Shown here piece after piece: positions 2-11,524 of a DNA stretch of 64,000 nucleotides. The notes below the pieces were generated by a model that was given only the letters and a program-made list of their open reading frames with translations, was not told the DNA's origin and made no database searches. Position numbers and translations under genes: made by a program. Numbering within the stretch: the first letter of the stretch is position 1; every line of letters begins with the position of its first letter. Origin of the DNA: a virus (lineage: Duplodnaviria > Heunggongvirae > Uroviricota > Caudoviricetes); the IMG/VR virus record IMGVR_UViG_3300023184_000028, positions 54,551-118,550 of that record; one strand, written 5' to 3'.

Positions 2-466
2 CCTATAGTTCATACTGGAACTCAACCTGTGGTTTCTCCTAGTTTAATATACTATGAAGCACAAAAAGTTGATGAATGGGTTGGTGAAAATTATGCCGGA
101 ACATCTGTTAGGGGTGCCGCCAAATACTTAAAAACTGCAGGTAAAATAACATCGTACTATTGGGCATTTGATGTTAACACTTTAGTTAATACCGTATTAA
201 ATTTAGGTCCAGTTGTTGTCGGCACCAATTGGTATTACAATATGTTTTACCCGGTAAATGGTGTTATAAGTGTAGGAGGTTATTACGCTGGCGGTCACGC
301 TTACGTAATAAATGGGGTTGATACAGTAAAAAAACAATTTAGAATAAAAAATAGTTGGGGTCAAACTTGGGGTATTACTGGACATGCTTATATCTCATTT
401 ACGGATATGGCAAGATTAATTTCTGAAAGTGGTGAAATATGTTTGGCAGTAGAAAATAATTTTTAA
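2..466 (+). CDS. Papain-like (C1 family) cysteine peptidase, 5'-truncated by the window edge
   Basis: The frame is open from base 2. It has the catalytic His motif AGGHAYVINGVD and the Asn motif IKNSWG. The catalytic Cys would lie upstream of the window. Confidence 0.8.
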   Translation, partial: PIVHTGTQPVVSPSLIYYEAQKVDEWVGENYAGTSVRGAAKYLKTAGKITSYYWAFDVNTLVNTVLNLGPVVVGTNWYYNMFYPVNGVISVGGYYAGGHAYVINGVDTVKKQFRIKNSWGQTWGITGHAYISFTDMARLISESGEICLAVENNF

Positions 467-480
467 TAAATAATATTACC

Positions 481-1701
481 ATGAAATGTTATAAATATAC
501 AATTACGAACACGGCAACTACTTGGGTAACATTTGGTTACCATAGTTGCGAAAGTAACTTAATCGTAACTCAAGATGAGTTATTTCCGGGTCAGCATAAA
601 TATGTTTGGGCATACGAAGATACAATAGTATCTGCTTTCCAAACAGGTTATAATCTTAATAATGATACTTTAAACCCAATACCAATTTCAACAGGTGCTA
701 CAACCACTACTACAACCATTCCACCTACACCAACTAATACTGAAACGCCAACGCCAACAAATACTGAAACGCCAACACCGACTCCTACTCCAACATTACC
801 AATGTATTATTACGATGTTAATGGTTATAGTTGCGGAACTCCTTGTAATTTTGCGGGAACATTTGTTGTTAAATCATCAACTCCTTTAACTACCGGATAT
901 TTTTATAATAACCCTGAAAATAGGACATATTCATTTGAAATTTTATCATTAACATCAGAAGTTGTTACAAATTATGATTTATCAACCGAACCTGGATATA
1001 GTGATTGTGTATCGTCTTGTTATGGGCCAACACCCACACCAACTAACACATCTACCCCCACACCAACAGTAACACCAACAATAACACCAACACAAGCACC
1101 TAATTATAGTCAATGTGCGTCAGGGTGGACATTATTAAACTTGGATGTTACAACATATAGAAATGGTGACCCAATTCCTGAAGTAACAGGTAACACAGAA
1201 TGGACTGGTTTGACAACAGGTGCTTGGTGTAATCCTGGAGGTAGTTCAAATCCAAACCCATTGTATGGAAAATTATATAATTGGTATGCAGTAAATGACC
1301 CAAGAGGTCTCGCACCCGAGGGGTATCATATACCAACACAAAGTGAATGGTTAGATTTAATAAATTGCGCCGGAGGAGCATCAATTGCTGGAGGTGAATT
1401 AAAAATGACAGGAAATACTGGTAATTGGGCGCCACCAAATTCAGGTGCAACTAATAGTACTAATTTTTCGGGTTTACCAGCAGGAGTAAGGGCTTCAACA
1501 AATGGAAGTTTTGGGGGAACATATACACAGGCAGGTTTTTGGGCATCAAATGAACAAAGTTCATTAAATGCTATTTCAAATTTTTTAACTTATTCAAGTA
1601 CTAATGTTTCTTCTGTAAATTCACCAAAAAGTAGAGGACTTAGTGTTAGATTAATACAAGACCCAACAACAACACCAACACCAACTCCAACAATAACGTA
1701 A
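481..1701 (+). CDS. Pro/Thr-repeat virion-surface-like protein with a C-terminal FISUMP (Fibrobacter succinogenes major paralogous) domain
   Basis: TPTPT tracts separate the domains. The C-terminal part reads WTLLNLDVTTYRNGDPI...YGKLYNWYAVNDPRGLAPEGYHIPTQSEW...FSGLPAG...GLSVRLIQD, the typical FISUMP pattern. Confidence 0.8.
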   Translation: MKCYKYTITNTATTWVTFGYHSCESNLIVTQDELFPGQHKYVWAYEDTIVSAFQTGYNLNNDTLNPIPISTGATTTTTTIPPTPTNTETPTPTNTETPTPTPTPTLPMYYYDVNGYSCGTPCNFAGTFVVKSSTPLTTGYFYNNPENRTYSFEILSLTSEVVTNYDLSTEPGYSDCVSSCYGPTPTPTNTSTPTPTVTPTITPTQAPNYSQCASGWTLLNLDVTTYRNGDPIPEVTGNTEWTGLTTGAWCNPGGSSNPNPLYGKLYNWYAVNDPRGLAPEGYHIPTQSEWLDLINCAGGASIAGGELKMTGNTGNWAPPNSGATNSTNFSGLPAGVRASTNGSFGGTYTQAGFWASNEQSSLNAISNFLTYSSTNVSSVNSPKSRGLSVRLIQDPTTTPTPTPTIT

Positions 1702-1729: not shown

Positions 1730-1737
1730 TATTTATA
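1730..1737 (+). promoter_or_regulatory. TATTTATA putative late-promoter motif (one of about 20 copies, see findings)
   Basis: It lies 17 nt upstream of the ATG at 1755. The same motif recurs upstream of most structural genes. Confidence 0.6.
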
Positions 1738-1754
1738 AATAAAATAGAAAAATT

Positions 1755-4232
1755 ATGTTAACAGGAAAAACCATAGGACAATTAACTTATTTGGAAGTAC
1801 CAACACCAGATACTTTAATACCCGTAGAATTAAGCGGAGCCACATATCATATTGACTTCTCGGCAATCACTACAGGAGGACTTATTGAAGTAACTTACTC
1901 TGAACTTGTAGATAAAATTAATGGTGAAACATTAACAAAAGGTACTCATTATATCATAACTGATTTCCAAACTTGTTATGATGTTCCTGAATATTATGTA
2001 AATGGTAATCCTAAAGGAAGTAATGTAATACAATACAATCAAGGCAATATTGAACCTATTATTGTTTTCGCAACAAGTATTAGTACAATTAGTTCTACCG
2101 CATATCAACCATCATATCCAAATGATAGAATCCAGTATGATTGGACTTTTAATATGACACCAAATACAGGTGGGATTGCTCTTGGTAGAATAACAGAAAG
2201 AATTGATGAATATAACAATAGAACCGACTATGACCACAGAACCATACTTTTTAATAGATTTAAATCATACAATAAAGGCTCTCAATTAACGGGGACTATC
2301 AATAGTTATGATTCCTCAACGGGTATAATAACAGGTAATGGTACTTTATTTTTAGGTGAAGTAGAAATTGGGGACATACTATTTTTTGAATATCAAGGAT
2401 ATATGGTGGGTGTTAGGGTTTATAGTGCTAGTACAAATACCACAATATTAGTTATTGTTGACCCGTCATTTGGAAGCACAATAAACTTCACAGGTGGACT
2501 TATTCCTTTCTACGCATCAACACCAACAGGTAATTACTACGAATATAAAGAGGTTTATATTGGACAAAAAAATGAAGAAGACTGGGATAATTTTTTAACT
2601 TTTAATTTAGATGGAAGTGCAATACATAACTATATTGGTGATTATTCTAAATTTTATCTTGATGAAATCGGAAGTAACTCAGGATTTTTATTGGCAAATA
2701 ATGTGTTTTATGGTAATAGAACTTATTCAAATACTATTGGTGATAGGTCTTATAACAATACGGGAACATATTGGTTTGCAAGAAATACAATTGCCGGTAG
2801 ATTTTATAACAATGTAATTCATAATAATGGTTTTTATAGTAATAGTATTGGAGAATATTTTGATAATAACATTATTAAAGGTTATATGTATGAAAATACA
2901 ATTGAACAATACTTTGAGAATAATGAAATTTATAGGGACTTTTATAGTAATCAAATTGGTAACTATTTTGATTATAATACAACATACCATTATTTTTACG
3001 ATAATAAAATAGGTGTTTATTTTGAAAATAACACTATTGGTCAAGAAGACATATATTATGAATTTTATTCAAACAAAATAAATAATAATTTTAAAGGTAA
3101 TTTATTTCTTGGTGATTTTTCTCTTAATACTGTCGATTCTAATGTTGTGGGTAATCATTTTTCAGGTTATACTGTGGCAAATAAAATAGGTTTAGAAACA
3201 AATTATAATGACTTTTCAGATGTTGTGACAGGAAATGATTTAAAAGGGAATTTTTATGAAAACACTATTGACGGTTCATTTGACGGAAATACTATTGGAT
3301 TTACGTTTCACGATAACTCAATAGTTGGTACTCTACAAGGAAATAAGTTTGGCTATGAAACTTCAGGTAATACTATTACAGGATATTTCACAGGTAATAC
3401 TGTTGGAAATTATTTTAATAATAATGAATTTTCAGGTGAAACCACAGAAAACATAATAGGTGATTTATGTTATGAAAACCAAATATTAAACTATTTTGAG
3501 GGTAATAACATATCTTATGGTTTTAAAGGTAATCTTATTTTAGAACCATTTGCATTTAACAATGTGGGTCTTGGATTCACCGCAAATCAAATATCTGGCC
3601 AGACAATATTTAATACGTTTGGTGACGCAACCGCAGGAAACGATTTCTTAGGTAATTTTATAAGTAATAAAATAAGTAATTTGTTTGTAGAAAATTCGGT
3701 TGGCAGTGATTTTAGTCTTAATACTATTGGAGAATCATTTGGTTTTAATATTATCGGTAATTCATTTGGAGCAAACACAGTTGGAATAGGATTCCAATAT
3801 AACACCATCGGTAATGAATTTGAAAGTAATTATATTGGTGATATATTTTCCGGAAATACCATAGGTAATAGTTTTGGATATGGAGCTGTCTCAAGTCAAA
3901 AAAATATTGTAGGTGATAATTTTATTGCCAATACAATAGGAGAACATTTTTATAATAATAGAATTAGTAATAATTTTAACCTTAATACTGTTGATAACTA
4001 TTTCCAATGGAATATTGTTGATACCATAGTTGGCGATACTTGTTTAACTACGGGTGTTTTGTACGAACCAACTACGGTTAATATCTTTAAAAATAGAAAT
4101 CTTGATAATAGATTGTCGTATTATGATGAGTTAGATGTATTAACAATAGAAACATTAACTGAAGCACCTTGTAATGACTTTGTGACTTTAGACATACCAG
4201 AGAATGATTTGAATTTTGGATTAATATTATAA
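1755..4232 (+). CDS. Tail fibre/spike-like protein with long Asn-rich parallel beta-helix repeats
   Basis: Dozens of NxIGxxFxxN repeats run from about residue 300 to 770. The N-terminal KTIGQL...DTLIPV...GATYHI motif is shared with the 7857 ORF. Confidence 0.7.
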   Translation: MLTGKTIGQLTYLEVPTPDTLIPVELSGATYHIDFSAITTGGLIEVTYSELVDKINGETLTKGTHYIITDFQTCYDVPEYYVNGNPKGSNVIQYNQGNIEPIIVFATSISTISSTAYQPSYPNDRIQYDWTFNMTPNTGGIALGRITERIDEYNNRTDYDHRTILFNRFKSYNKGSQLTGTINSYDSSTGIITGNGTLFLGEVEIGDILFFEYQGYMVGVRVYSASTNTTILVIVDPSFGSTINFTGGLIPFYASTPTGNYYEYKEVYIGQKNEEDWDNFLTFNLDGSAIHNYIGDYSKFYLDEIGSNSGFLLANNVFYGNRTYSNTIGDRSYNNTGTYWFARNTIAGRFYNNVIHNNGFYSNSIGEYFDNNIIKGYMYENTIEQYFENNEIYRDFYSNQIGNYFDYNTTYHYFYDNKIGVYFENNTIGQEDIYYEFYSNKINNNFKGNLFLGDFSLNTVDSNVVGNHFSGYTVANKIGLETNYNDFSDVVTGNDLKGNFYENTIDGSFDGNTIGFTFHDNSIVGTLQGNKFGYETSGNTITGYFTGNTVGNYFNNNEFSGETTENIIGDLCYENQILNYFEGNNISYGFKGNLILEPFAFNNVGLGFTANQISGQTIFNTFGDATAGNDFLGNFISNKISNLFVENSVGSDFSLNTIGESFGFNIIGNSFGANTVGIGFQYNTIGNEFESNYIGDIFSGNTIGNSFGYGAVSSQKNIVGDNFIANTIGEHFYNNRISNNFNLNTVDNYFQWNIVDTIVGDTCLTTGVLYEPTTVNIFKNRNLDNRLSYYDELDVLTIETLTEAPCNDFVTLDIPENDLNFGLIL

Positions 4233-4257: not shown

Positions 4258-5334
4258 ATGATACAAGGAATTAGAATAACAAGTACAAATTTATCAGGTG
4301 CCACCGCCGATGTAACTTTTTATCCAACAACAGGTGGCTCAACTTCTTTAGGTACTCAAACGGTACCTTTTGATAACATTAGTGATTATCCTTACGGTAC
4401 TTATGATTTATCAATTGCCGAATACGATAGAACCTATGAAATAGAAGTACCAGCACCCTTAACAGGCCAAAGTGCGTATACTGATACGGTAAGGGGAGTT
4501 ACAGTAGATGGCGGAGCACAACCATTCTCAGGTGCGGTATTATCTGAGGTGTGGGGTACATATACAACAGAATATATCACAAATGAAGGTATACCATCTA
4601 CAGACATTGTTTTAGCGGAAGGTATTTGTTCAGATGATGTGGATGCATCAAAAGTACCCGGAAATATTGGTGGATGGCCAACCAGTATTAATTCATTTTT
4701 AGGACCGTTTATGTCCGGTGGATTGGCAGGTTATCCGTTTGTTGGTAGTGTTGGGTTTGGAGCATTTGCAAGTCACGTAGCAACAACTCTTGGTGGAACC
4801 TTGTTTGTTACAAGTATGCCACATATTGGTGTAACTGAAGAAGGTAGTTCAGGTAGAATGTTACGTAGAGGTAAATCCGATAGTTTGACTGATAATACTT
4901 GTGGTGCTGTATGGGGTGCAATTAACCAAGTTGTAAATGTATTAAGTACCGCACCAAGTCAAGATAATCCACCATTTGACAATGGTAATTATTCTTTTTG
5001 GAAATTAACAGATATTTTATGGCCGTATAAATCAACCTTAACAGGTTTTACAGGTACTGCTGAAGAAATATATAATAAACAAATGATATTTGCTACAGAA
5101 ACTATTAGGGATTCCGCATATCAGTATGTTATTGACTATTTACCAGGTGCAACCGAAGCAAATACAGAAAATGATGTATATTTTTTAAGCGGTATTTTTA
5201 TTAATAGTGATGTTAGTACGGGTACAACACAATTTGAATCATATGTTGTTGTTGATAAAGTTATGAAATATGTGTTTGACGACCAATGGTATGATATAAC
5301 TGGCGATTATTTGGCGGGATTACCAATTGACTAA
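4258..5334 (+). CDS. LCIB/LCIC-family beta-carbonic anhydrase-like domain fused to an N-terminal virion-type module
   Basis: Motifs are ICSDD (C124, D126), F-x-x-GGLAGYPFVGSVGFGAFASH, PHIG (H189), GRMLRRG and TCGA (C215). This is the Cys/His/Cys zinc ligand set and glycine pattern of LCIB-like proteins. Confidence 0.8.
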   Translation: MIQGIRITSTNLSGATADVTFYPTTGGSTSLGTQTVPFDNISDYPYGTYDLSIAEYDRTYEIEVPAPLTGQSAYTDTVRGVTVDGGAQPFSGAVLSEVWGTYTTEYITNEGIPSTDIVLAEGICSDDVDASKVPGNIGGWPTSINSFLGPFMSGGLAGYPFVGSVGFGAFASHVATTLGGTLFVTSMPHIGVTEEGSSGRMLRRGKSDSLTDNTCGAVWGAINQVVNVLSTAPSQDNPPFDNGNYSFWKLTDILWPYKSTLTGFTGTAEEIYNKQMIFATETIRDSAYQYVIDYLPGATEANTENDVYFLSGIFINSDVSTGTTQFESYVVVDKVMKYVFDDQWYDITGDYLAGLPID

Positions 5335-5360: not shown

Positions 5361-5627
5361 ATGAGAATTTGTATATTATGTGAAGAATCTAAAGTTTCAC
5401 AAGCAAGAGAAAAAATGAAAAATAATAATATCTTAAAAATAGATTTATCCCCAACCGGAGAATTACCCGCAACACATAAGTTATGTGTTATGGCAGTAAC
5501 CGAAGAAAGGGCGAAACAACTTATGGATTCCGCCGAATTAACAATAATTGAGGCAATGAACCCAAGTGAATTTTTGGAAAAACATAATCTAAAAAAAATC
5601 GGCAAATACGGAATTGGAAACCTATAA
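5361..5627 (+). CDS. Hypothetical protein
   Basis: 88-aa ORF with an A-rich leader, in line with its neighbours. Confidence 0.6.
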   Translation: MRICILCEESKVSQAREKMKNNNILKIDLSPTGELPATHKLCVMAVTEERAKQLMDSAELTIIEAMNPSEFLEKHNLKKIGKYGIGNL

Positions 5628-6234
5628 GATAAAAAAAAATTTCATCACAAAGGATGAATCAAACCAAATAGTAAATTGGTTAGATTCTGTTAACCATACA
5701 GGTGATGATAGTAATTACCATCTTACAGAGCTCTCCAAAGTATTAAAAGGTAAATCTTGTATTTTTGATATTTCAAATACATCATTAACAAATTATATCA
5801 CAAAATTCCAATCAATATCAGACGTATCTAAAAACCCTTTACCTGATTTTATTCATAACATAATAGATAGAATATCAGAAGAGTTTAATTTTCCAAAAGA
5901 TAATATTTTTCTTCAGGCGGTTGATATGAATAAAGGGGGAAAAATTAACCCACATTATGATGCATCTCTTGATGGATATGTTAATTATAAATGTAACATT
6001 AGTGTATTGTCAGAAGATTATGATTTATTTTTAGACAAAGAGTCAATTAAAATACAAGAAACTGATTTATACGGATTTGAGGCCTCATTATATAAACATT
6101 GGACAAACGAGTTTAATTCAAGAAGAGTTTTTTTAAGTTTTGGGTTTTTATTAAAATATGAAGATGTGGGTAGAGATATAAACGACCCGAGAGTTAGATT
6201 AAGTAAAAGAATTGAGAAATACTTTCAAAAATAA
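5614..6234 (+). CDS. 2OG-Fe(II) oxygenase superfamily protein
   Basis: HxD motif (NPHYDA), distal His (YKHW) and Arg (RRVFLSFG). TTG start overlapping the upstream gene. Confidence 0.7.
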   Translation: METYKIKKNFITKDESNQIVNWLDSVNHTGDDSNYHLTELSKVLKGKSCIFDISNTSLTNYITKFQSISDVSKNPLPDFIHNIIDRISEEFNFPKDNIFLQAVDMNKGGKINPHYDASLDGYVNYKCNISVLSEDYDLFLDKESIKIQETDLYGFEASLYKHWTNEFNSRRVFLSFGFLLKYEDVGRDINDPRVRLSKRIEKYFQK

Positions 6235-7588: not shown

Positions 7589-7849
7589 TTGTACGCAGTA
7601 AAATTAAATAGCAATTTATATAGTGGTCAGACGGCTAATATTATCTTTAGTCCTGATACAGGAGGTACTGTAGATATTGGTTCTGTGGTTATACCATATG
7701 ATTTTTTTGTTGATTATTATTATGGTGTCTATAGCTTTTCATTTCCTGACATAAACAAAAATTGTTTTTTATATCTTAATGACCACTATTTATTATTGGA
7801 AAATGGATATAATTTACTACAAGAAGACGGTTCAACGATAATTATATAA
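7589..7849 (+). CDS. Small protein carrying the repeated ~65-aa module plus a C-terminal LLLENG..LLQEDG motif
   Basis: TTG start. It aligns by eye with the N-terminus of 4258 and with 8755. Confidence 0.6.
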   Translation: MYAVKLNSNLYSGQTANIIFSPDTGGTVDIGSVVIPYDFFVDYYYGVYSFSFPDINKNCFLYLNDHYLLLENGYNLLQEDGSTIII

Positions 7850-7856
7850 AAAGATT

Positions 7857-8753
7857 ATGGCAAGTTTAAAAATAAGTCAACTACCCTCATTAAGTGCAAT
7901 AACAGGTACTGATATAATACCTATTGTAAGTTCAGGTGATACTTATAAAGTATCTTATAGTTTATTATCAAATGGTGATTATCAATTATTTAGAAATAAA
8001 ACAATAAGTCAATCAGGATTTACATTTACCTTTGCTGGTAACTTAAATAGTAAATTAATTATATCTCAAAAATTTGAACAAGGATTGGGTAATAACGCCT
8101 TTGGTATTTATTCTCACGCTCAAGGACAAAATACAATAGCATATGGCGATTATTCTCACTCAGAGGGGTATGGTACAAAATCTACTGCTGCGTACTCTTT
8201 TGTACATGGATATAATAGTGAATCTTTAGGAAATTATTCTTTTACATCAGGTATTGGAACATTTACCTCAGCACAAGGACAGGCAGTATTTGGTAAGTAT
8301 AACACAACAGGTAATACAAGTTCTTTATTCGTTATTGGTAATGGAACCAGTGTTTTTACTAGACGAGATTTAGCATTATTTAATTCAACAGGACTTACAA
8401 TAAATGGTGATTTAATTGTCACAGGAAATACTAATATTAAACCTTATAGTGTTTATATTGGTTTAATATCTCAAACGGGTACATCGGCACCTACTGATGT
8501 TGTTTTAGAAAACACATTAGGATTTACACCTGTTTGGGAATATATATCAGCAGGAACATATAGTGTTAGTCAAACAGACGCTTTTCCAATAGAAAAAGTG
8601 TATGTTAACACACCATTAATGGTTAATAACGATATTACAGATTATTACGCAATAGATAATACTTATTTTCCAAACACATTAATTGTTAGAACATTAAGCG
8701 GTCTTGATGATTCGTTATACTATTCACCAATTGAAATAAGAGTTTACAACTAA
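7857..8753 (+). CDS. Fibre/adhesin-like protein with YadA-head-like (SHAxG) repeats
   Basis: N-terminal KISQLP...DIIPIV anchor motif. Repeats SHAQGQNTIAYG / SHSEGYGTKSTA / SFVHGYNSESLG / SFTSGIGT. Confidence 0.7.
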   Translation: MASLKISQLPSLSAITGTDIIPIVSSGDTYKVSYSLLSNGDYQLFRNKTISQSGFTFTFAGNLNSKLIISQKFEQGLGNNAFGIYSHAQGQNTIAYGDYSHSEGYGTKSTAAYSFVHGYNSESLGNYSFTSGIGTFTSAQGQAVFGKYNTTGNTSSLFVIGNGTSVFTRRDLALFNSTGLTINGDLIVTGNTNIKPYSVYIGLISQTGTSAPTDVVLENTLGFTPVWEYISAGTYSVSQTDAFPIEKVYVNTPLMVNNDITDYYAIDNTYFPNTLIVRTLSGLDDSLYYSPIEIRVYN

Positions 8754-8754
8754 T

Positions 8755-8982
8755 ATGAGCACATCAACCACCATAACACTTGAAAGTATAAATTATAGTG
8801 GTGAGTCAGCTTCCATTATTTTTAGGCCGATTGGAGACACTGTGTCAATTAATTTAGGTACTCAAATACTTCCATACGTATTTGACCCATCAATTTTAGA
8901 ACCATCCAAAACTATTTATGGACAATATGTAATTAAGACCTCAACAGGGAATTGTTCATATAACTTATTTGTGGTTAAGTAA
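8755..8982 (+). CDS. Stand-alone copy of the repeated ~65-aa module
   Basis: SINYSGESASIIFRP...LGTQILPY...YGQY matches the module in 4258 and 7589. Confidence 0.65.
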   Translation: MSTSTTITLESINYSGESASIIFRPIGDTVSINLGTQILPYVFDPSILEPSKTIYGQYVIKTSTGNCSYNLFVVK

Positions 8983-8993
8983 TATTTATAGAC

Positions 8994-10217
8994 ATGGGAA
9001 ATCCTTTATATTGTTGTAAATATACTATAGTTAACTCCGGCTCAACTCCGGCGTATTTTAACTACGTTTCGTGTGTTCCAAATACTCCAACCAATAATTT
9101 CCAAATACCATTATCACCAAAACAAGTAAAATATATTTGGTCTTTTGACGGGATGTTTACCCCATTAAATAGGACAATTGGGATTCTTTGTAAAGAATGT
9201 AAACCATTTAATGTTACTCCAGTCCCATCCAAAACACCTACTCGGACTCCGACCCCAACCATAACTTCAACTATTACGCCTACAATGACTCCAACCGTAA
9301 CACCAACGGTAACACCATCAAATTTACCATTATCAGGTTGTTATGAAGGATATTCAATACCTAACACATATATAATGTATACTGATTGTTGTGATGGAAC
9401 TATAGTTTCTAGATACGTTATTGAACAAACACCATACTTGGTTAATGTTGATTTATCACAATTCTATCAAAATATTAATTTTACATATCAAATTTCAAAT
9501 TGTCCAACTCCAACTCCAACCCCAACAATAACTTCAACACCGACAGTTACTCCAACAAATACTGTAACCCCAAGTCAAAGTTATATACCTAAAATATTAA
9601 CAATGAAGTTTAATTCAACAGGTAATACTAATAATTGGTTTGTGGAAGGTTCCACTTTCTTTGATATGGTTGTTGATTGGGGTGACACTCAAATTGAAGC
9701 GTATGTCGCATCTAATATGTATAATCCAACTCACACATATTCGGCTAGTGGTGAGTATTCTTGTGTGATAACATTTACCGACCCAACAATTATAACATCT
9801 TTAGATATCTCAACAGGGTATGGAGATAACAGATTAGTTGAGATAACAGGATTAGAATATTTAACGACATTATCTTACTTAAATTTAAGTGGTAATTTAT
9901 TAAGTGCGTTTACTCCAACAATTCTAACATCATTAAATCTTTTAGATTTATCGTCTAATCAAATTGTATCATTTAATTCATTATACCCAATTTCAAGTTC
10001 TTTAGGTTTCTTATACTTAAATGATAACTCATTATCAAATACTGAAATTGATAATTCTTTAATTTATTTATCAGGAACAACAAGTTGGTCTTCACCTAAT
10101 TTAATGACCTTTAATAATCAATTGGGTGGCGGATGTTTAGTAAACCCAAGTTCAGGATATGACGAGTACTTGAGTTTAACAGGTGCAGGATGGACAATTT
10201 CTATTGATATTTGTTAA
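8994..10217 (+). CDS. Pro/Thr-repeat protein with PKD-like and leucine-rich-repeat regions
   Basis: PTPT/PTVT tracts, VDWGD...PTHTYSASGEY (PKD-like), and LSYLNLSGNLL / LNLLDLSSNQI / LGFLYLNDNSL (LRR). The N-terminal module is shared with 481. Confidence 0.75.
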   Translation: MGNPLYCCKYTIVNSGSTPAYFNYVSCVPNTPTNNFQIPLSPKQVKYIWSFDGMFTPLNRTIGILCKECKPFNVTPVPSKTPTRTPTPTITSTITPTMTPTVTPTVTPSNLPLSGCYEGYSIPNTYIMYTDCCDGTIVSRYVIEQTPYLVNVDLSQFYQNINFTYQISNCPTPTPTPTITSTPTVTPTNTVTPSQSYIPKILTMKFNSTGNTNNWFVEGSTFFDMVVDWGDTQIEAYVASNMYNPTHTYSASGEYSCVITFTDPTIITSLDISTGYGDNRLVEITGLEYLTTLSYLNLSGNLLSAFTPTILTSLNLLDLSSNQIVSFNSLYPISSSLGFLYLNDNSLSNTEIDNSLIYLSGTTSWSSPNLMTFNNQLGGGCLVNPSSGYDEYLSLTGAGWTISIDIC

Positions 10218-10270: not shown

Positions 10271-11524
10271 ATGAGTAAAATTTTTATTCAGATAGCAAGC
10301 TATCGTGACCCACAGTTACCTCTCACAATAAAAAACGCAATTGAAAATGCAAAAAGTCCAAAAAATTTAAGATTTGGTATTGCAAGACAATTTCATGAGG
10401 ATGATAAATTTGATGATTTATCAGAGTATTCCAATGATAAAAGATTTAGAATCTTAGATATCCCTTATAATGAATCAAGAGGAGTTTGTTGGGCAAGACA
10501 TTTGACACAACAACTTTATGAAAACGAAGAATATACAATGCAAATTGATTCTCACATGAGATTTGAAAAAGATTGGGATAAGACCTTCATAGACATGATT
10601 AAACAGCTTCAAAAGAAGGGACACCCTAAACCATTACTTACAGGTTATGTGTCCTCATTTGACCCCGATAATGACCCTGGTGCAAGAGTTAGAGAGCCGT
10701 GGAGAATGGCGTTTGATAGATTCATTCCTGAAGGCGCGGTATTCTTTTTACCTGAAACAATTCCAAGTTGGCAAGAACTTAAATCCCCCGTACCTGCAAG
10801 ATTTTATTCTGCACATTTTTGCTTCACAGTAGGTCAATTCTCAAAAGAAGTTCAACATGACCCTGAATTTTATTTTCACGGCGAAGAAATTTCAATTGCC
10901 GCAAGAGCATATACTCATGGATATGATTTATTCCATCCACATAAAGTCGCCATTTGGCACGAATATACTCGTAAAGGTAGAACAAAACAATGGGATGACG
11001 ATAAAGAATGGGGTGAAAAAAATAGATTAGCACATCTAAAAAACAGAAAACTTTTTGGTATGGATGGTGAGGTTTATGATGAAGAGTATTTTGGTAATTA
11101 TGGATTTGGTAAAGAAAGAACTTTAACTGAGTATGAAAAATACTCAGGATTATTATTCAGTAATCGCGCAGTACAACAATATACGTTAGATAAAAACTAT
11201 CCTCCAAATCCTTATGATTTTCAGAATGAAGAAGATTGGAAAAACAGTTTTGCTCAAATATTCAAGCATTGTATTGATGTGGGGTATTCTCAAGTACCAG
11301 AAAAAGATTATGATTTTTGGGTAGTCGCTTTTCATAATTCAGCGGACGAAACTATTTTTAGAAAAGATGCGGACATTAATGAAATTAATGGTATGATGAG
11401 AGACCCTGACGGTTATTGTAAAGTATGGAGAGAGTTCCAAACATCTCATAAACCAACATACTGGGTAGTATGGCCACATTCATTATCTAAAGGATGGTGT
11501 GATAGAATTACAGGAAATTTATAA
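10271..11524 (+). CDS. GT60-like (GlcNAc/Gnt1-type) polypeptide N-acetylglucosaminyltransferase
   Basis: IFIQIASYRDP, GVCWAR, QIDSHMRF (DSH variant of DxD) and FHGEE...AARAYTHGYDLFHP motifs. Confidence 0.8.
   Translation: MSKIFIQIASYRDPQLPLTIKNAIENAKSPKNLRFGIARQFHEDDKFDDLSEYSNDKRFRILDIPYNESRGVCWARHLTQQLYENEEYTMQIDSHMRFEKDWDKTFIDMIKQLQKKGHPKPLLTGYVSSFDPDNDPGARVREPWRMAFDRFIPEGAVFFLPETIPSWQELKSPVPARFYSAHFCFTVGQFSKEVQHDPEFYFHGEEISIAARAYTHGYDLFHPHKVAIWHEYTRKGRTKQWDDDKEWGEKNRLAHLKNRKLFGMDGEVYDEEYFGNYGFGKERTLTEYEKYSGLLFSNRAVQQYTLDKNYPPNPYDFQNEEDWKNSFAQIFKHCIDVGYSQVPEKDYDFWVVAFHNSADETIFRKDADINEINGMMRDPDGYCKVWREFQTSHKPTYWVVWPHSLSKGWCDRITGNL

What the first reader, a model, noticed from the sequence alone, without database searches (positions are those of the whole stretch)
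4258..5334. LCIB-type beta-carbonic anhydrase domain built into a virion-module protein
Seen: residues ~115-225 contain C124-x-D126, GGLAGYPFxGxxGFxAFxSH, PH189IG, a downstream Arg cluster and C215GA. The N-terminal ~65 aa is the module also found in 7589 and 8755. Established: the LCIB/LCIC family (Chlamydomonas CO2-concentrating mechanism, diatom PtCA1) has a beta-CA fold with Cys/His/Cys zinc ligands. Inference: a zinc enzyme of this family may be displayed on the particle or reused as an oligomeric or ligand-binding head. I do not know of this family as a described phage structural component, but I cannot check that here.
Basis: partly seen in the sequence, partly recalled or inferred. Interest (0 to 1): 0.78.

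Follow-up and report, generated by a model that had tools for sequence, protein, structure and literature searches.

The report
Phage LCIB-type carbonic anhydrase on adaptor
An uncultured 192-kb freshwater phage encodes a complete algal-type (LCIB/theta) zinc carbonic anhydrase joined to a small N-terminal adaptor that related phages put on adhesin-like proteins, so the enzyme is probably carried on the virus particle, which no paper I found describes and which remains untested.

Summary
ORF 4258-5334 (358 aa) matches Pfam LCIB_C_CA (E 2.6e-28). Its model (pLDDT 93) superposes on PtLCIB4, 6kfs, LCIB and LCIC. C124, D126, H173, H189, R203 and C215 align with the PtLCIB4 zinc and catalytic residues and are invariant in all 46 homologs aligned.

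Residues 1-68 form a separate Ig-like beta-sandwich. It recurs in two small ORFs of the window (7589, 8755) and at the N-terminus of many unrelated phage proteins.

New here:
- Phage LCIB domains form one strongly supported clade that holds no cell genome and sits beside Bacteroidota sequences.
- Cellular homologs are bare 230-290 aa enzymes.
- Phage copies carry at least five different N-termini.
- In T4-like relatives the gene lies between neck gp13 and the tail sheath. There it has taken over the N-terminus of the neighbouring non-LCIB gene.
- In a crAss-like phage it lies near the capsid gene.
- The enzyme core is the most conserved part (dN/dS 0.16).
- A symmetric dimer is predicted that leaves the adaptors free.

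Virion mounting is therefore plausible (about 0.5) but unproven, and activity and purpose are untested. This scan had already noted phage LCIB enzymes on other DNA, in at least 10 genomes.

The parts
4258..5334 (+). Whole gene, 358 aa (P0001): N-terminal adaptor plus LCIB-type carbonic anhydrase domain
   Evidence: ORF list and translation. More than 260 close homologs, mostly 358 aa, in metagenomes. dN/dS 0.20.
4258..4461 (+). N-terminal module, residues 1-68: six-strand Ig-like beta-sandwich, candidate docking adaptor
   Evidence: AF2 pLDDT 85. Only generic Ig/FN3/T9SS-CTD-like fold matches, Z up to 6.2. Found at the N-terminus of many other proteins of 110-785 aa. Not part of the predicted dimer interface.
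4462..4563 (+). Connecting segment, residues 69-102 (helix 70-79, start of the LCIB fold); well ordered, not a Pro/Thr linker
   Evidence: pLDDT 84-96 and pTM 0.84 for the whole chain.
4564..5256 (+). LCIB_C_CA domain as matched by Pfam, residues 103-333. The fold continues to the C-terminus.
   Evidence: Pfam E 2.6e-28. Foldseek PtLCIB4/6kfs E 1e-14, TM by target 0.81-0.83.
4627..4635 (+). C124-S125-D126: first zinc ligand and catalytic Asp (PtLCIB4 C46-S47-D48)
   Evidence: Mapping through the S47R mutant chain 5b60. C and D invariant in 46/46 homologs.
4774..4776 (+). H173, equivalent of PtLCIB4 His88
   Evidence: Aligns with the residue changed in the H88A mutant chain 5b5z. Invariant 46/46.
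4822..4824 (+). H189, second zinc ligand (PtLCIB4 H102)
4864..4866 (+). R203, invariant Arg of the RRG motif, candidate partner of D126
   Evidence: Invariant 46/46. Lies in the predicted dimer interface.
4900..4902 (+). C215, third zinc ligand (PtLCIB4 C126)
7589..7849 (+). Stand-alone paralogue of the N-terminal module (86 aa), directly before spike-like gene 7857-8753
   Evidence: BLASTP E 2.6e-9 to P0001 residues 2-59. Alignment.
8755..8982 (+). Second, more divergent stand-alone module (75 aa), directly before the Pro/Thr-stalk LRR protein 8994-10217
   Evidence: BLASTP E 2e-4 to ORF 7589-7849. Alignments.
1755..4232 (+). Upstream 825-aa repeat-rich, fibre-like gene. It ends 25 nt before the LCIB gene and is probably co-transcribed with it.
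   Evidence: Its N-part matches a Clostridium phage 'tail fiber protein' weakly, E 6e-4. The A-rich 25-nt gap has no motif of its own.
1730..1736 (+). TATTTAT promoter-like motif 19 nt before the start of 1755; likely drives 1755-4232 and the LCIB gene
   Evidence: 13 of 37 plus-strand motifs lie within 35 nt upstream of ORF starts against 0.93 expected.

Best explanation
The gene encodes a two-domain late protein. Residues 86-358 are a complete LCIB/theta-type beta-carbonic anhydrase. Zinc is held by C124, H189 and C215, the D126/R203 pair and H173 are in place, and two LCIB domains pair symmetrically next to the active sites. The domain most likely interconverts CO2 and bicarbonate. Residues 1-68 are a small Ig-like adaptor that stays outside the dimer interface. 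Phages of this group put the same adaptor on Pro/Thr-stalked, adhesin-like and other large proteins, and also encode it alone. I infer that the adaptor docks its cargo onto the virus particle, so that a dimeric carbonic anhydrase rides on the virion and meets the host envelope on adsorption. Shown: family membership, intact site, purifying selection, a phage-only clade, adaptor swapping, and structural-module context in other lineages. Inferred: catalytic activity, dimer, virion location. What the enzyme achieves for the phage is unknown. My best guess is that it changes local inorganic carbon or pH in the host's capsule or periplasm at infection.
For: Family:
- Pfam 99.3 bits, E 2.6e-28.
- The profile of phage homologs hits 6kfs and PtLCIB4 at E 4e-46 and 7e-46.
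- The model has pLDDT 93. Its top Foldseek matches are all LCIB-family chains, followed by classical beta-CAs.

Site and selection:
- C124, D126, H173, H189, R203 and C215 are invariant in 46 of 46 homologs down to 24% identity.
- dN/dS is 0.155 for the core, which is the least variable segment among 98 close homologs.

Dimer:
- ipSAE 0.74 against a best control of 0.00. The three runs agree in at least 62% of contacts, and the partner's pLDDT is at least 78.
- In calibration, 20 of 30 proteins solved as pairs and 1 of 23 solved as single chains reached the mark.
- The interface lies only in residues 116-294.
- LCIB-family dimers have been solved, so this pass may be from memory.

Adaptor:
- The same N-module heads proteins of 110-785 aa, including Pro/Thr-stalk proteins P0185 and P0188 and the 691-aa P0169.
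- P0169 occupies the syntenic slot in a related 183-kb phage.

Other lineages:
- 139 IMG/VR contigs carry the domain, with at least five different N-termini.
- In a T4-like contig it lies between gp13 and the sheath.
- That 374-aa form carries the N-terminal ~60 aa of a 307-aa non-LCIB protein. In a relative, that protein is the gene just before a 308-aa LCIB gene.
- In a crAss-like contig it lies about 2.6 kb after the capsid gene.

Cellular homologs and tree:
- Cellular homologs (146, mostly Bacteroidota) are bare 230-290 aa proteins.
- All phage rows form one clade (SH-aLRT 100, stem 0.72) with no cell genome inside.

Neighbours:
- ORF 7857-8753 matches a Flavobacterium phage 'tail spike protein' at E 9e-13.
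Against: - No virion proteome, structure or cultured relative exists. There is no PHROG hit and no tblastn hit in 50,697 phage records.
- The adaptor's fold is generic (Z up to 6.2), and no docking partner is known.
- None of the proteins that share the adaptor is a proven virion protein.
- In this genome the gene sits in a variable cargo region flanked by glycosyltransferases and sugar enzymes. It is not among the baseplate or capsid genes.
- The enzyme is joined rigidly, without a stalk.
- A dimer fits poorly with the trimeric anchors usual for fibres.
- From physical chemistry: a nanometre-scale particle in open water cannot hold a CO2/bicarbonate gradient, so a benefit of surface display is not obvious.
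- From my own knowledge: Chlamydomonas LCIB/LCIC showed no activity in vitro, so an intact site does not guarantee catalysis.
Confidence: 0.5

Rival explanations
1. It is a soluble auxiliary metabolic enzyme. The protein is made late and stays in the infected cell. There it speeds CO2/bicarbonate exchange to feed carboxylations that nucleotide and lipid synthesis need. The N-terminal modules only serve oligomerisation or localisation inside the cell.
For: - The likely host phylum carries stand-alone homologs, and the phage clade sits next to Bacteroidota sequences.
- The catalytic core is under the strongest constraint.
- The phage invests heavily in nucleotide metabolism, with a ribonucleotide reductase, a DNA polymerase and a helicase.
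- Viral alpha-, beta- and gamma-class CAs have been read as auxiliary genes elsewhere (bioRxiv 10.64898/2026.01.21.700432).
- One homolog, P0124, lies beside sugar-nucleotide enzymes rather than structural genes.
Against: - It does not explain why every phage lineage adds an N-terminal module that cellular enzymes lack.
- It does not explain why those modules are shared with adhesin-like or neighbouring late proteins.
- It does not explain why the gene sits between neck and sheath genes, or next to the capsid gene, in unrelated phages.
Confidence: 0.28
2. It is an enzyme with another substrate. The beta-CA fold and zinc site are kept, but the phage clade has shifted to a related small-molecule reaction such as COS or CS2 hydrolysis, or to an unknown hydrolysis at the host surface.
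For: - A long stem branch (0.72) separates the phage clade from cellular LCIBs.
- The phage clade has its own insertions, for example residues 132-138 with conserved N136 and G138, and 266-273.
- From my own knowledge, COS and CS2 hydrolases have the beta-CA fold.
Against: - All residues shared with active PtLCIB4 are unchanged.
- Only eight clade-specific conserved substitutions were found, and none is at a zinc ligand or catalytic residue.
- No known glycan- or envelope-directed activity exists for this fold.
Confidence: 0.1
3. It is a non-catalytic head. The LCIB fold is reused as a stable dimeric knob or binding module on the particle, and zinc serves only to hold the structure.
For: - From my own knowledge, Chlamydomonas LCIB/LCIC lacked activity in vitro.
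- The domain sits where other phages of the group place adhesin-like heads.
Against: - Invariance extends beyond the zinc ligands to D126, R203 and H173, which matter for catalysis rather than folding.
- Binding heads of phages usually vary, whereas this core is the least variable part.
Confidence: 0.1

Closest known systems
PtLCIB4 / PtLCIB3 of Phaeodactylum tricornutum (LCIB family, also called theta-CA; PDB 5b5y, 5b5z, 5b60) and the LCIB-domain proteins 6kfs and 9vzj
   Same: Same Pfam family and fold. The CSD motif, the His88 equivalent, the His and Cys ligands and the RRG arginine are all identical. A homodimer is predicted through the same domain.
   Different: Only 20-22% identity in the structural alignment. 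The protein is phage-encoded, carries an extra 68-aa N-terminal Ig-like domain and clade-specific insertions, has no organelle-targeting role, and belongs to a separate phage-only clade.
Chlamydomonas LCIB/LCIC (PDB 5k5w, 5b5x), components of the algal CO2-concentrating mechanism
   Same: Same family and fold (Foldseek E 4e-9 and 6e-8).
   Different: More distant: the profile E-value is 1e-18 to 1e-19, against 1e-46 for PtLCIB4. There is no link to Rubisco or a pyrenoid here. A role in photosynthetic carbon concentration is not expected in a phage of heterotrophic Bacteroidota.
Stand-alone LCIB-family proteins of Bacteroidota (Chitinophaga, Saprospiraceae, Dyadobacter, Flavobacterium, Pedobacter and others)
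   Same: Nearest cellular relatives, from the probable host phylum, with the same conserved residues.
   Different: At most 35% identical, 230-290 aa with no N-terminal module, and none falls inside the phage clade. I found no functional study of them.
Phage proteins built as a lineage-specific N-terminal anchor plus an exchangeable C-terminal head (tailspikes, tail fibres, display on decoration proteins such as T4 Soc/Hoc)
   Same: One head domain sits on several unrelated N-termini, and one N-terminus carries several unrelated heads. Genes are interleaved with fibre- or spike-like genes.
   Different: The head is a small-molecule zinc enzyme rather than a glycan-degrading or receptor-binding domain. 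It is predicted to be dimeric, not trimeric. Virion attachment is not shown.
Viral alpha-, beta- and gamma-class carbonic anhydrases reported as auxiliary genes (e.g. bioRxiv 10.64898/2026.01.21.700432)
   Same: Virus-encoded carbonic anhydrase.
   Different: Those belong to other CA classes and are read as soluble metabolic helpers. No LCIB-fold protein was found among the catalogued viral protein structures. The best CA match in BFVD is a Pandoravirus protein at TM 0.28.

Membership tests
LCIB/LCIC family (Pfam PF18599, theta-type beta-carbonic anhydrases) | Profile match above the curated threshold | tested here: met
   99.3 bits against a cut-off of 25, E 2.6e-28, profile positions 11-217 of 223.
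LCIB/LCIC family (Pfam PF18599, theta-type beta-carbonic anhydrases) | LCIB variant of the beta-CA fold | tested here: met
   AF2 pLDDT 93. The eight best Foldseek PDB hits are all LCIB-family chains (E 1e-14 to 3e-7, TM by target 0.67-0.83), followed by classical beta-CAs.
LCIB/LCIC family (Pfam PF18599, theta-type beta-carbonic anhydrases) | Cys-His-Cys zinc ligands (PtLCIB4 C46, H102, C126) | tested here: met
   C124, H189 and C215 align with them and are invariant in 46/46 homologs. I could not measure their distances in the model, because the coordinates are not exposed.
LCIB/LCIC family (Pfam PF18599, theta-type beta-carbonic anhydrases) | Catalytic Asp after the first Cys, conserved Arg, and the His88 equivalent | tested here: met
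   D126, R203 and H173 are invariant. H173 and S125 are mapped through the H88A and S47R mutant chains.
LCIB/LCIC family (Pfam PF18599, theta-type beta-carbonic anhydrases) | Homodimer through the catalytic domain | tested here: met
   Prediction only: ipSAE 0.74 against a best control of 0.00, symmetric interface at residues 116-294. Solved LCIB dimers exist, so the pass may be from memory.
LCIB/LCIC family (Pfam PF18599, theta-type beta-carbonic anhydrases) | Zinc content and CO2 hydration activity | not testable with these tools
   Needs recombinant protein, metal analysis and stopped-flow or 18O-exchange assays.
Phage virion (structural) protein | Detected in purified particles | not testable with these tools
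   No cultured relative. No match in 50,697 deposited phage genomes or in PHROGs.
Phage virion (structural) protein | Encoded within a structural or late gene block | tested here: inconclusive
   In this genome it lies among fibre- or spike-like genes in a variable region flanked by sugar enzymes. In T4-like contigs it lies between gp13 and the sheath, and in a crAss-like contig near the capsid gene. The TATTTAT motif upstream of the operon also precedes replication genes, so it does not mark late genes.
Phage virion (structural) protein | N-terminal anchor shared with known virion proteins | tested here: inconclusive
   The adaptor is shared with many adhesin-like proteins, and in T4-like phages with a neighbouring late protein. 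None of these partners has a proven virion location.
Auxiliary metabolic gene (host-derived soluble enzyme) | Same architecture as the cellular enzyme and a position outside structural modules | tested here: not met
   Cellular homologs lack any N-terminal module. Phage copies carry lineage-specific modules and lie in or beside structural genes.

The most novel reading that the evidence does not exclude
A phage-only clade of LCIB-type carbonic anhydrases, taken once from bacteria (probably Bacteroidota), has spread among T4-like, crAss-like and giant freshwater phages as an exchangeable head mounted on virion adaptors. This would be the first carbonic anhydrase known as a component of a virus particle, acting on inorganic carbon or pH at the host envelope during infection.
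Probability: 0.45. Interest if true: 0.8.

Novelty: new variant of a known kind. Interest (0 to 1): 0.68.

Why it matters
The LCIB/theta family is known almost only from algal CO2-concentrating mechanisms. Here it appears as a large, strongly conserved clade found only in phages so far. It is abundant in lake metagenomes and built like a virion head, not like a metabolic helper gene.

If the enzyme is active and particle-borne, three things would follow:
- It would add a new class of virion-associated enzyme, one that acts on a dissolved gas and not on a polymer.
- It would raise the question of what inorganic-carbon or pH chemistry does during adsorption or early infection of freshwater Bacteroidota.
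- It would offer a compact, naturally display-ready carbonic anhydrase scaffold.

If instead it is a soluble late enzyme, it still extends viral auxiliary metabolism to a CA class that surveys have not counted. The survey PMC13098186 treats theta-CA as restricted mainly to diatoms and protozoa.

Tried and rejected
- PHROGs found no family for this protein.
- tblastn of the whole protein against 50,697 phage records found nothing.
- Pfam on ten proteins that share the adaptor found nothing.
- PHROGs on seven LCIB proteins with other N-termini found nothing useful.
- The adaptor fold search gave only generic Ig-like matches at Z 5-6, with T9SS C-terminal domains tied with FN3 domains. No function can be read from it. 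The protein-atlas feature search on the adaptor gave no usable hit.
- I recalled the 'MAQTKDQL...' N-terminus of the 374-aa T4-like form as a known tail-fibre N-terminus. It gave no match in deposited phages, nor did the 776-aa fusion. That recollection is therefore unverified.
- No RNA holder was listed for the region, so expression timing could not be examined.
- The literature search for LCIB with phage found nothing relevant. Jin et al. 2016 and Kikutani et al. 2016 are not held.
The first genome scan failed for lack of a conserved stretch and was repeated with a smaller alignment.
- Three odd multi-stretch hits of the representative search are artefacts. P0123 is a 61-residue tandem repeat. 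P0147 and P0177 look like long repeat proteins by eye, but BLASTP gave only one HSP for P0147 and none for P0177.
- TATTTAT as a late-promoter marker was rejected, because it also precedes replication genes.
- L092, a 1.5-kb MAG contig at 46% identity, is too short to place and was left out of the tree.

Full report
**The observation.**
ORF 4258-5334 on the plus strand is open and encodes 358 residues.
- C124-S-D126
- GGLAGYPFVGSVGFGAFASH at 154-173
- PHIG at 188-191
- RMLRRGK at 200-206
- C215-G-A

Pfam LCIB_C_CA (PF18599) matches residues 103-333 at 99.3 bits against a curated cut-off of 25, E 2.6e-28. phmmer against PDB sequences finds only LCIB-family chains: 6kfs at 6e-13, 9vzj at 1e-9, PtLCIB4 at 2e-9, and LCIB and LCIC weakly.

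**The fold and the active site.**
An AlphaFold2 model built on a 70-row alignment has mean pLDDT 93 and pTM 0.84. The eight best Foldseek matches in the PDB are all LCIB-family chains. These include PtLCIB4 and its mutants and 6kfs (E about 1e-14, TM by target 0.78-0.83), then LCIB and LCIC, followed by classical beta-carbonic anhydrases.

A profile of the phage homologs hits 6kfs and PtLCIB4 at E 4e-46 and 7e-46. The mutant chains 5b60 (S47R) and 5b5z (H88A) let me map residues directly: C124 = C46, S125 = S47, D126 = D48, H173 = H88, H189 = H102, C215 = C126. In 46 LCIB-bearing homologs down to 24% identity, C124, D126, H173, H189, R203 and C215 are invariant. I could not measure ligand distances, because model coordinates are not exposed. 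Clustering of the ligands is therefore inferred from the superposition.

**The N-terminal module.**
- Residues 2-59 match ORF 7589-7849 at E 2.6e-9. That ORF matches ORF 8755-8982 at E 2e-4.
- Folded alone, residues 1-70 give a six-strand beta-sandwich with pLDDT 85. Its PDB matches are generic: Z 5-6, with T9SS C-terminal domains tied with FN3 and Ig domains.
- An exhaustive search of 1.8 billion representatives shows the module at the extreme N-terminus of many proteins of 110-785 aa, including a large set near 690 aa.
- Examples are P0185 and P0188, where the module is followed by Pro/Thr stalks and Cys-containing domains. P0169 (691 aa) is another, and there are stand-alone forms. None of ten such proteins has a Pfam family.
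- P0169 occupies the same syntenic slot in a related 183-kb phage.
- P0188 lies in the same variable region, before the DNA polymerase gene, in a 75-kb contig.

**Genomic setting.**
The window is bases 54551-118550 of a single 192,370-bp contig. It is a low-GC phage (about 30%) with a B-family DNA polymerase, a helicase, a ribonucleotide reductase and baseplate wedge genes.

The LCIB gene lies in a plus-strand run:
- a 1130-aa protein ending in a papain-like peptidase;
- a Fib_succ_major protein with Pro/Thr linkers;
- an 825-aa repeat protein;
- the LCIB gene;
- an 88-aa and a 206-aa protein;
- two fibre- or spike-like proteins and a Pro/Thr-LRR protein, interleaved with a 113-aa protein and the two small module ORFs.

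ORF 7857-8753 matches a 'tail spike protein' of Flavobacterium phages at E 9e-13. The N-part of ORF 1755-4232 weakly matches a Clostridium phage 'tail fiber protein' at E 6e-4. Both flanks of this run are sugar-modifying enzymes, not capsid or tail core genes. The label 'virion module' therefore rests on weak similarity of the neighbours.

The gene starts 25 nt after the stop of ORF 1755-4232, across an A-rich gap with no motif of its own. A TATTTAT motif sits 19 nt before ORF 1755. That motif is strongly placed before ORF starts: 13 of 37 occurrences against 0.93 expected. It also precedes replication genes, so it says nothing about timing.

**Distribution and origin.**
- Close homologs (78-94% identity, mostly 358 aa) are very common in metagenomes, on contigs up to 320 kb.
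- DNA runs holding a fifth or more of the sampled words are labelled lake water or freshwater metagenomes, apart from one labelled only 'metagenome'.
- IMG/VR holds 139 viral contigs with the domain.
- GTDB species genomes hold 146 cellular homologs, mostly Bacteroidota, with some Acidobacteriota, Planctomycetota and others. Apart from one 1.5-kb MAG fragment at 46% that was left out of the tree, all are at most 35% identical, and all are bare proteins of about 230-290 aa.
- In a maximum-likelihood tree of 139 domain sequences, all 13 phage-contig rows and 20 unlabelled metagenomic representatives form one clade (SH-aLRT 100, stem length 0.72).
- No cell genome falls inside that clade. Its neighbours are Chitinophaga and other Bacteroidota sequences, and the algal clade lies across the tree.
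- The tree is midpoint-rooted and came from a quick search, so 'one origin from Bacteroidota' is the simplest reading and not a proven one.

**Adaptor swapping in other lineages.**
Within the phage clade the N-termini differ by lineage:
- the window's module, in three subgroups at 80-91%, about 53% and 48-50% identity;
- a 776-aa fusion;
- a 308-aa form;
- a 374-aa form;
- a 315-aa form;
- a 399-aa form with a C-terminal extension.

In a T4-like contig the 374-aa form lies between the neck protein gp13 and the tail sheath. Its first ~60 residues are 83-87% identical to the N-terminus of 306-315-aa proteins that have no LCIB domain. In a related 95-kb contig, exactly such a 307-aa protein is the gene just before a 308-aa LCIB gene, at the same place between gp13 and the sheath. 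The 374-aa form therefore looks like a fusion of the neighbour's N-terminus to the LCIB head.

In a crAss-like 129-kb contig the 315-aa form lies about 2.6 kb after the capsid gene. This is the strongest argument that the domain behaves as an exchangeable head on lineage-specific anchors. It is still an argument from gene architecture.

**Selection and oligomer.**
Among 98 close homologs the catalytic core (residues 103-232) is the least variable segment and the adaptor the most variable. Pairwise dN/dS is 0.20 overall, 0.155 for the core and 0.23 for the adaptor. This speaks against a fast-evolving receptor-binding head.

Two copies are predicted to pair symmetrically. The ipSAE is 0.74 against a best control of 0.00, the three runs agree in at least 62% of contacts, and the partner's pLDDT is at least 78. 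In calibration, 20 of 30 proteins solved as pairs and 1 of 23 solved as single chains reached the mark. The interface lies only in residues 116-294, next to the active-site motifs, and the adaptors are free. Because LCIB-family dimers have been solved, this pass may reflect memory of those structures.

**Interpretation.**
- Best supported (about 0.5): a dimeric, probably active LCIB-type carbonic anhydrase carried on a docking adaptor and likely mounted on the particle.
- Main rival (about 0.28): a soluble late enzyme that supplies bicarbonate or CO2 inside the cell. It leaves the N-terminal modules and the structural-module positions unexplained.
- Shifted substrate (about 0.1): suggested by the long stem branch and clade-specific insertions.
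- Non-catalytic knob (about 0.1): disfavoured by the invariance of D126, R203 and H173.
- The purpose of a particle-borne carbonic anhydrase is unclear. A free virion cannot hold a gradient in open water, so any effect would have to arise in a confined layer such as a capsule or the periplasm.

**What is known.**
I found no paper linking LCIB or theta-CA to phages. Viral CAs reported so far are alpha, beta and gamma classes. A 2026 survey treats theta-CA as restricted mainly to diatoms and protozoa. BFVD holds no LCIB-like viral protein.

This scan itself had already noted phage LCIB enzymes on other DNA, with 13 notes in at least 10 genomes. Their reading agrees with mine. Here I tested the phage-only clade, the adaptor sharing and the T4-like context independently.

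Noticed in passing
window 5614-6234 (+): A 206-aa protein two genes after the LCIB gene. It has an H-x-D motif, and its language-model features sit nearest 2OG-Fe(II) oxygenase clusters (score 0.96; PF13640, PF05118). Together with the Pro/Thr-stalk proteins and the GT60-like GlcNAc transferase at 10271-11524, it could be a prolyl or other hydroxylase acting on the stalks. Pfam itself gave no hit.
   Followed up: partly
window, 13 sites, e.g. 1730, 6237, 8983, 35054, 39273, 53769, 58593, 62090: TATTTAT lies 5-34 nt before ORF starts 13 times out of 37 plus-strand occurrences, against 0.93 expected. Same-composition 7-mers reach at most 5. It precedes both fibre-like and replication genes.
   Followed up: partly
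L090:346-1530 (T4-like viral contig, 48.8 kb): A phage contig that carries a 776-aa LCIB fusion also encodes a 394-aa RuBisCO_large-family protein, next to PhoH and about 8.5 kb upstream of the LCIB gene. I did not examine whether it is a true Rubisco or a Rubisco-like protein.
   Followed up: no
L172:9001-10900 versus L089:10001-11125: Two adjacent genes in one T4-like phage (a 307-aa protein and a 308-aa LCIB) correspond to a single 374-aa gene in a relative. That gene joins the first protein's N-terminus to the LCIB domain, an apparent in-frame recombination between neighbours.
   Followed up: partly
window 7589-7849 and 8755-8982: Two stand-alone copies of the adaptor (86 and 75 aa) each sit immediately before a fibre- or adhesin-like gene. 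I could not tell whether they are functional caps or adaptors, or leftovers of head swapping.
   Followed up: partly
window 481-1701 (+); also L091:19283-20923: Fib_succ_major domain proteins (Pfam E 2.9e-32 in the window's copy) with Pro/Thr linkers occur both in this phage and in the crAss-like phage that carries an LCIB gene.
   Followed up: no
window 2-466 (+), end of a 1130-aa protein (genome 51624-55016): A papain-like cysteine peptidase domain (Peptidase_C1, phrog_16701) forms the C-terminus of a very large protein at the head of the fibre-like gene run. In a related phage a 303-aa peptidase-like protein follows the adaptor-bearing 691-aa protein.
   Followed up: no
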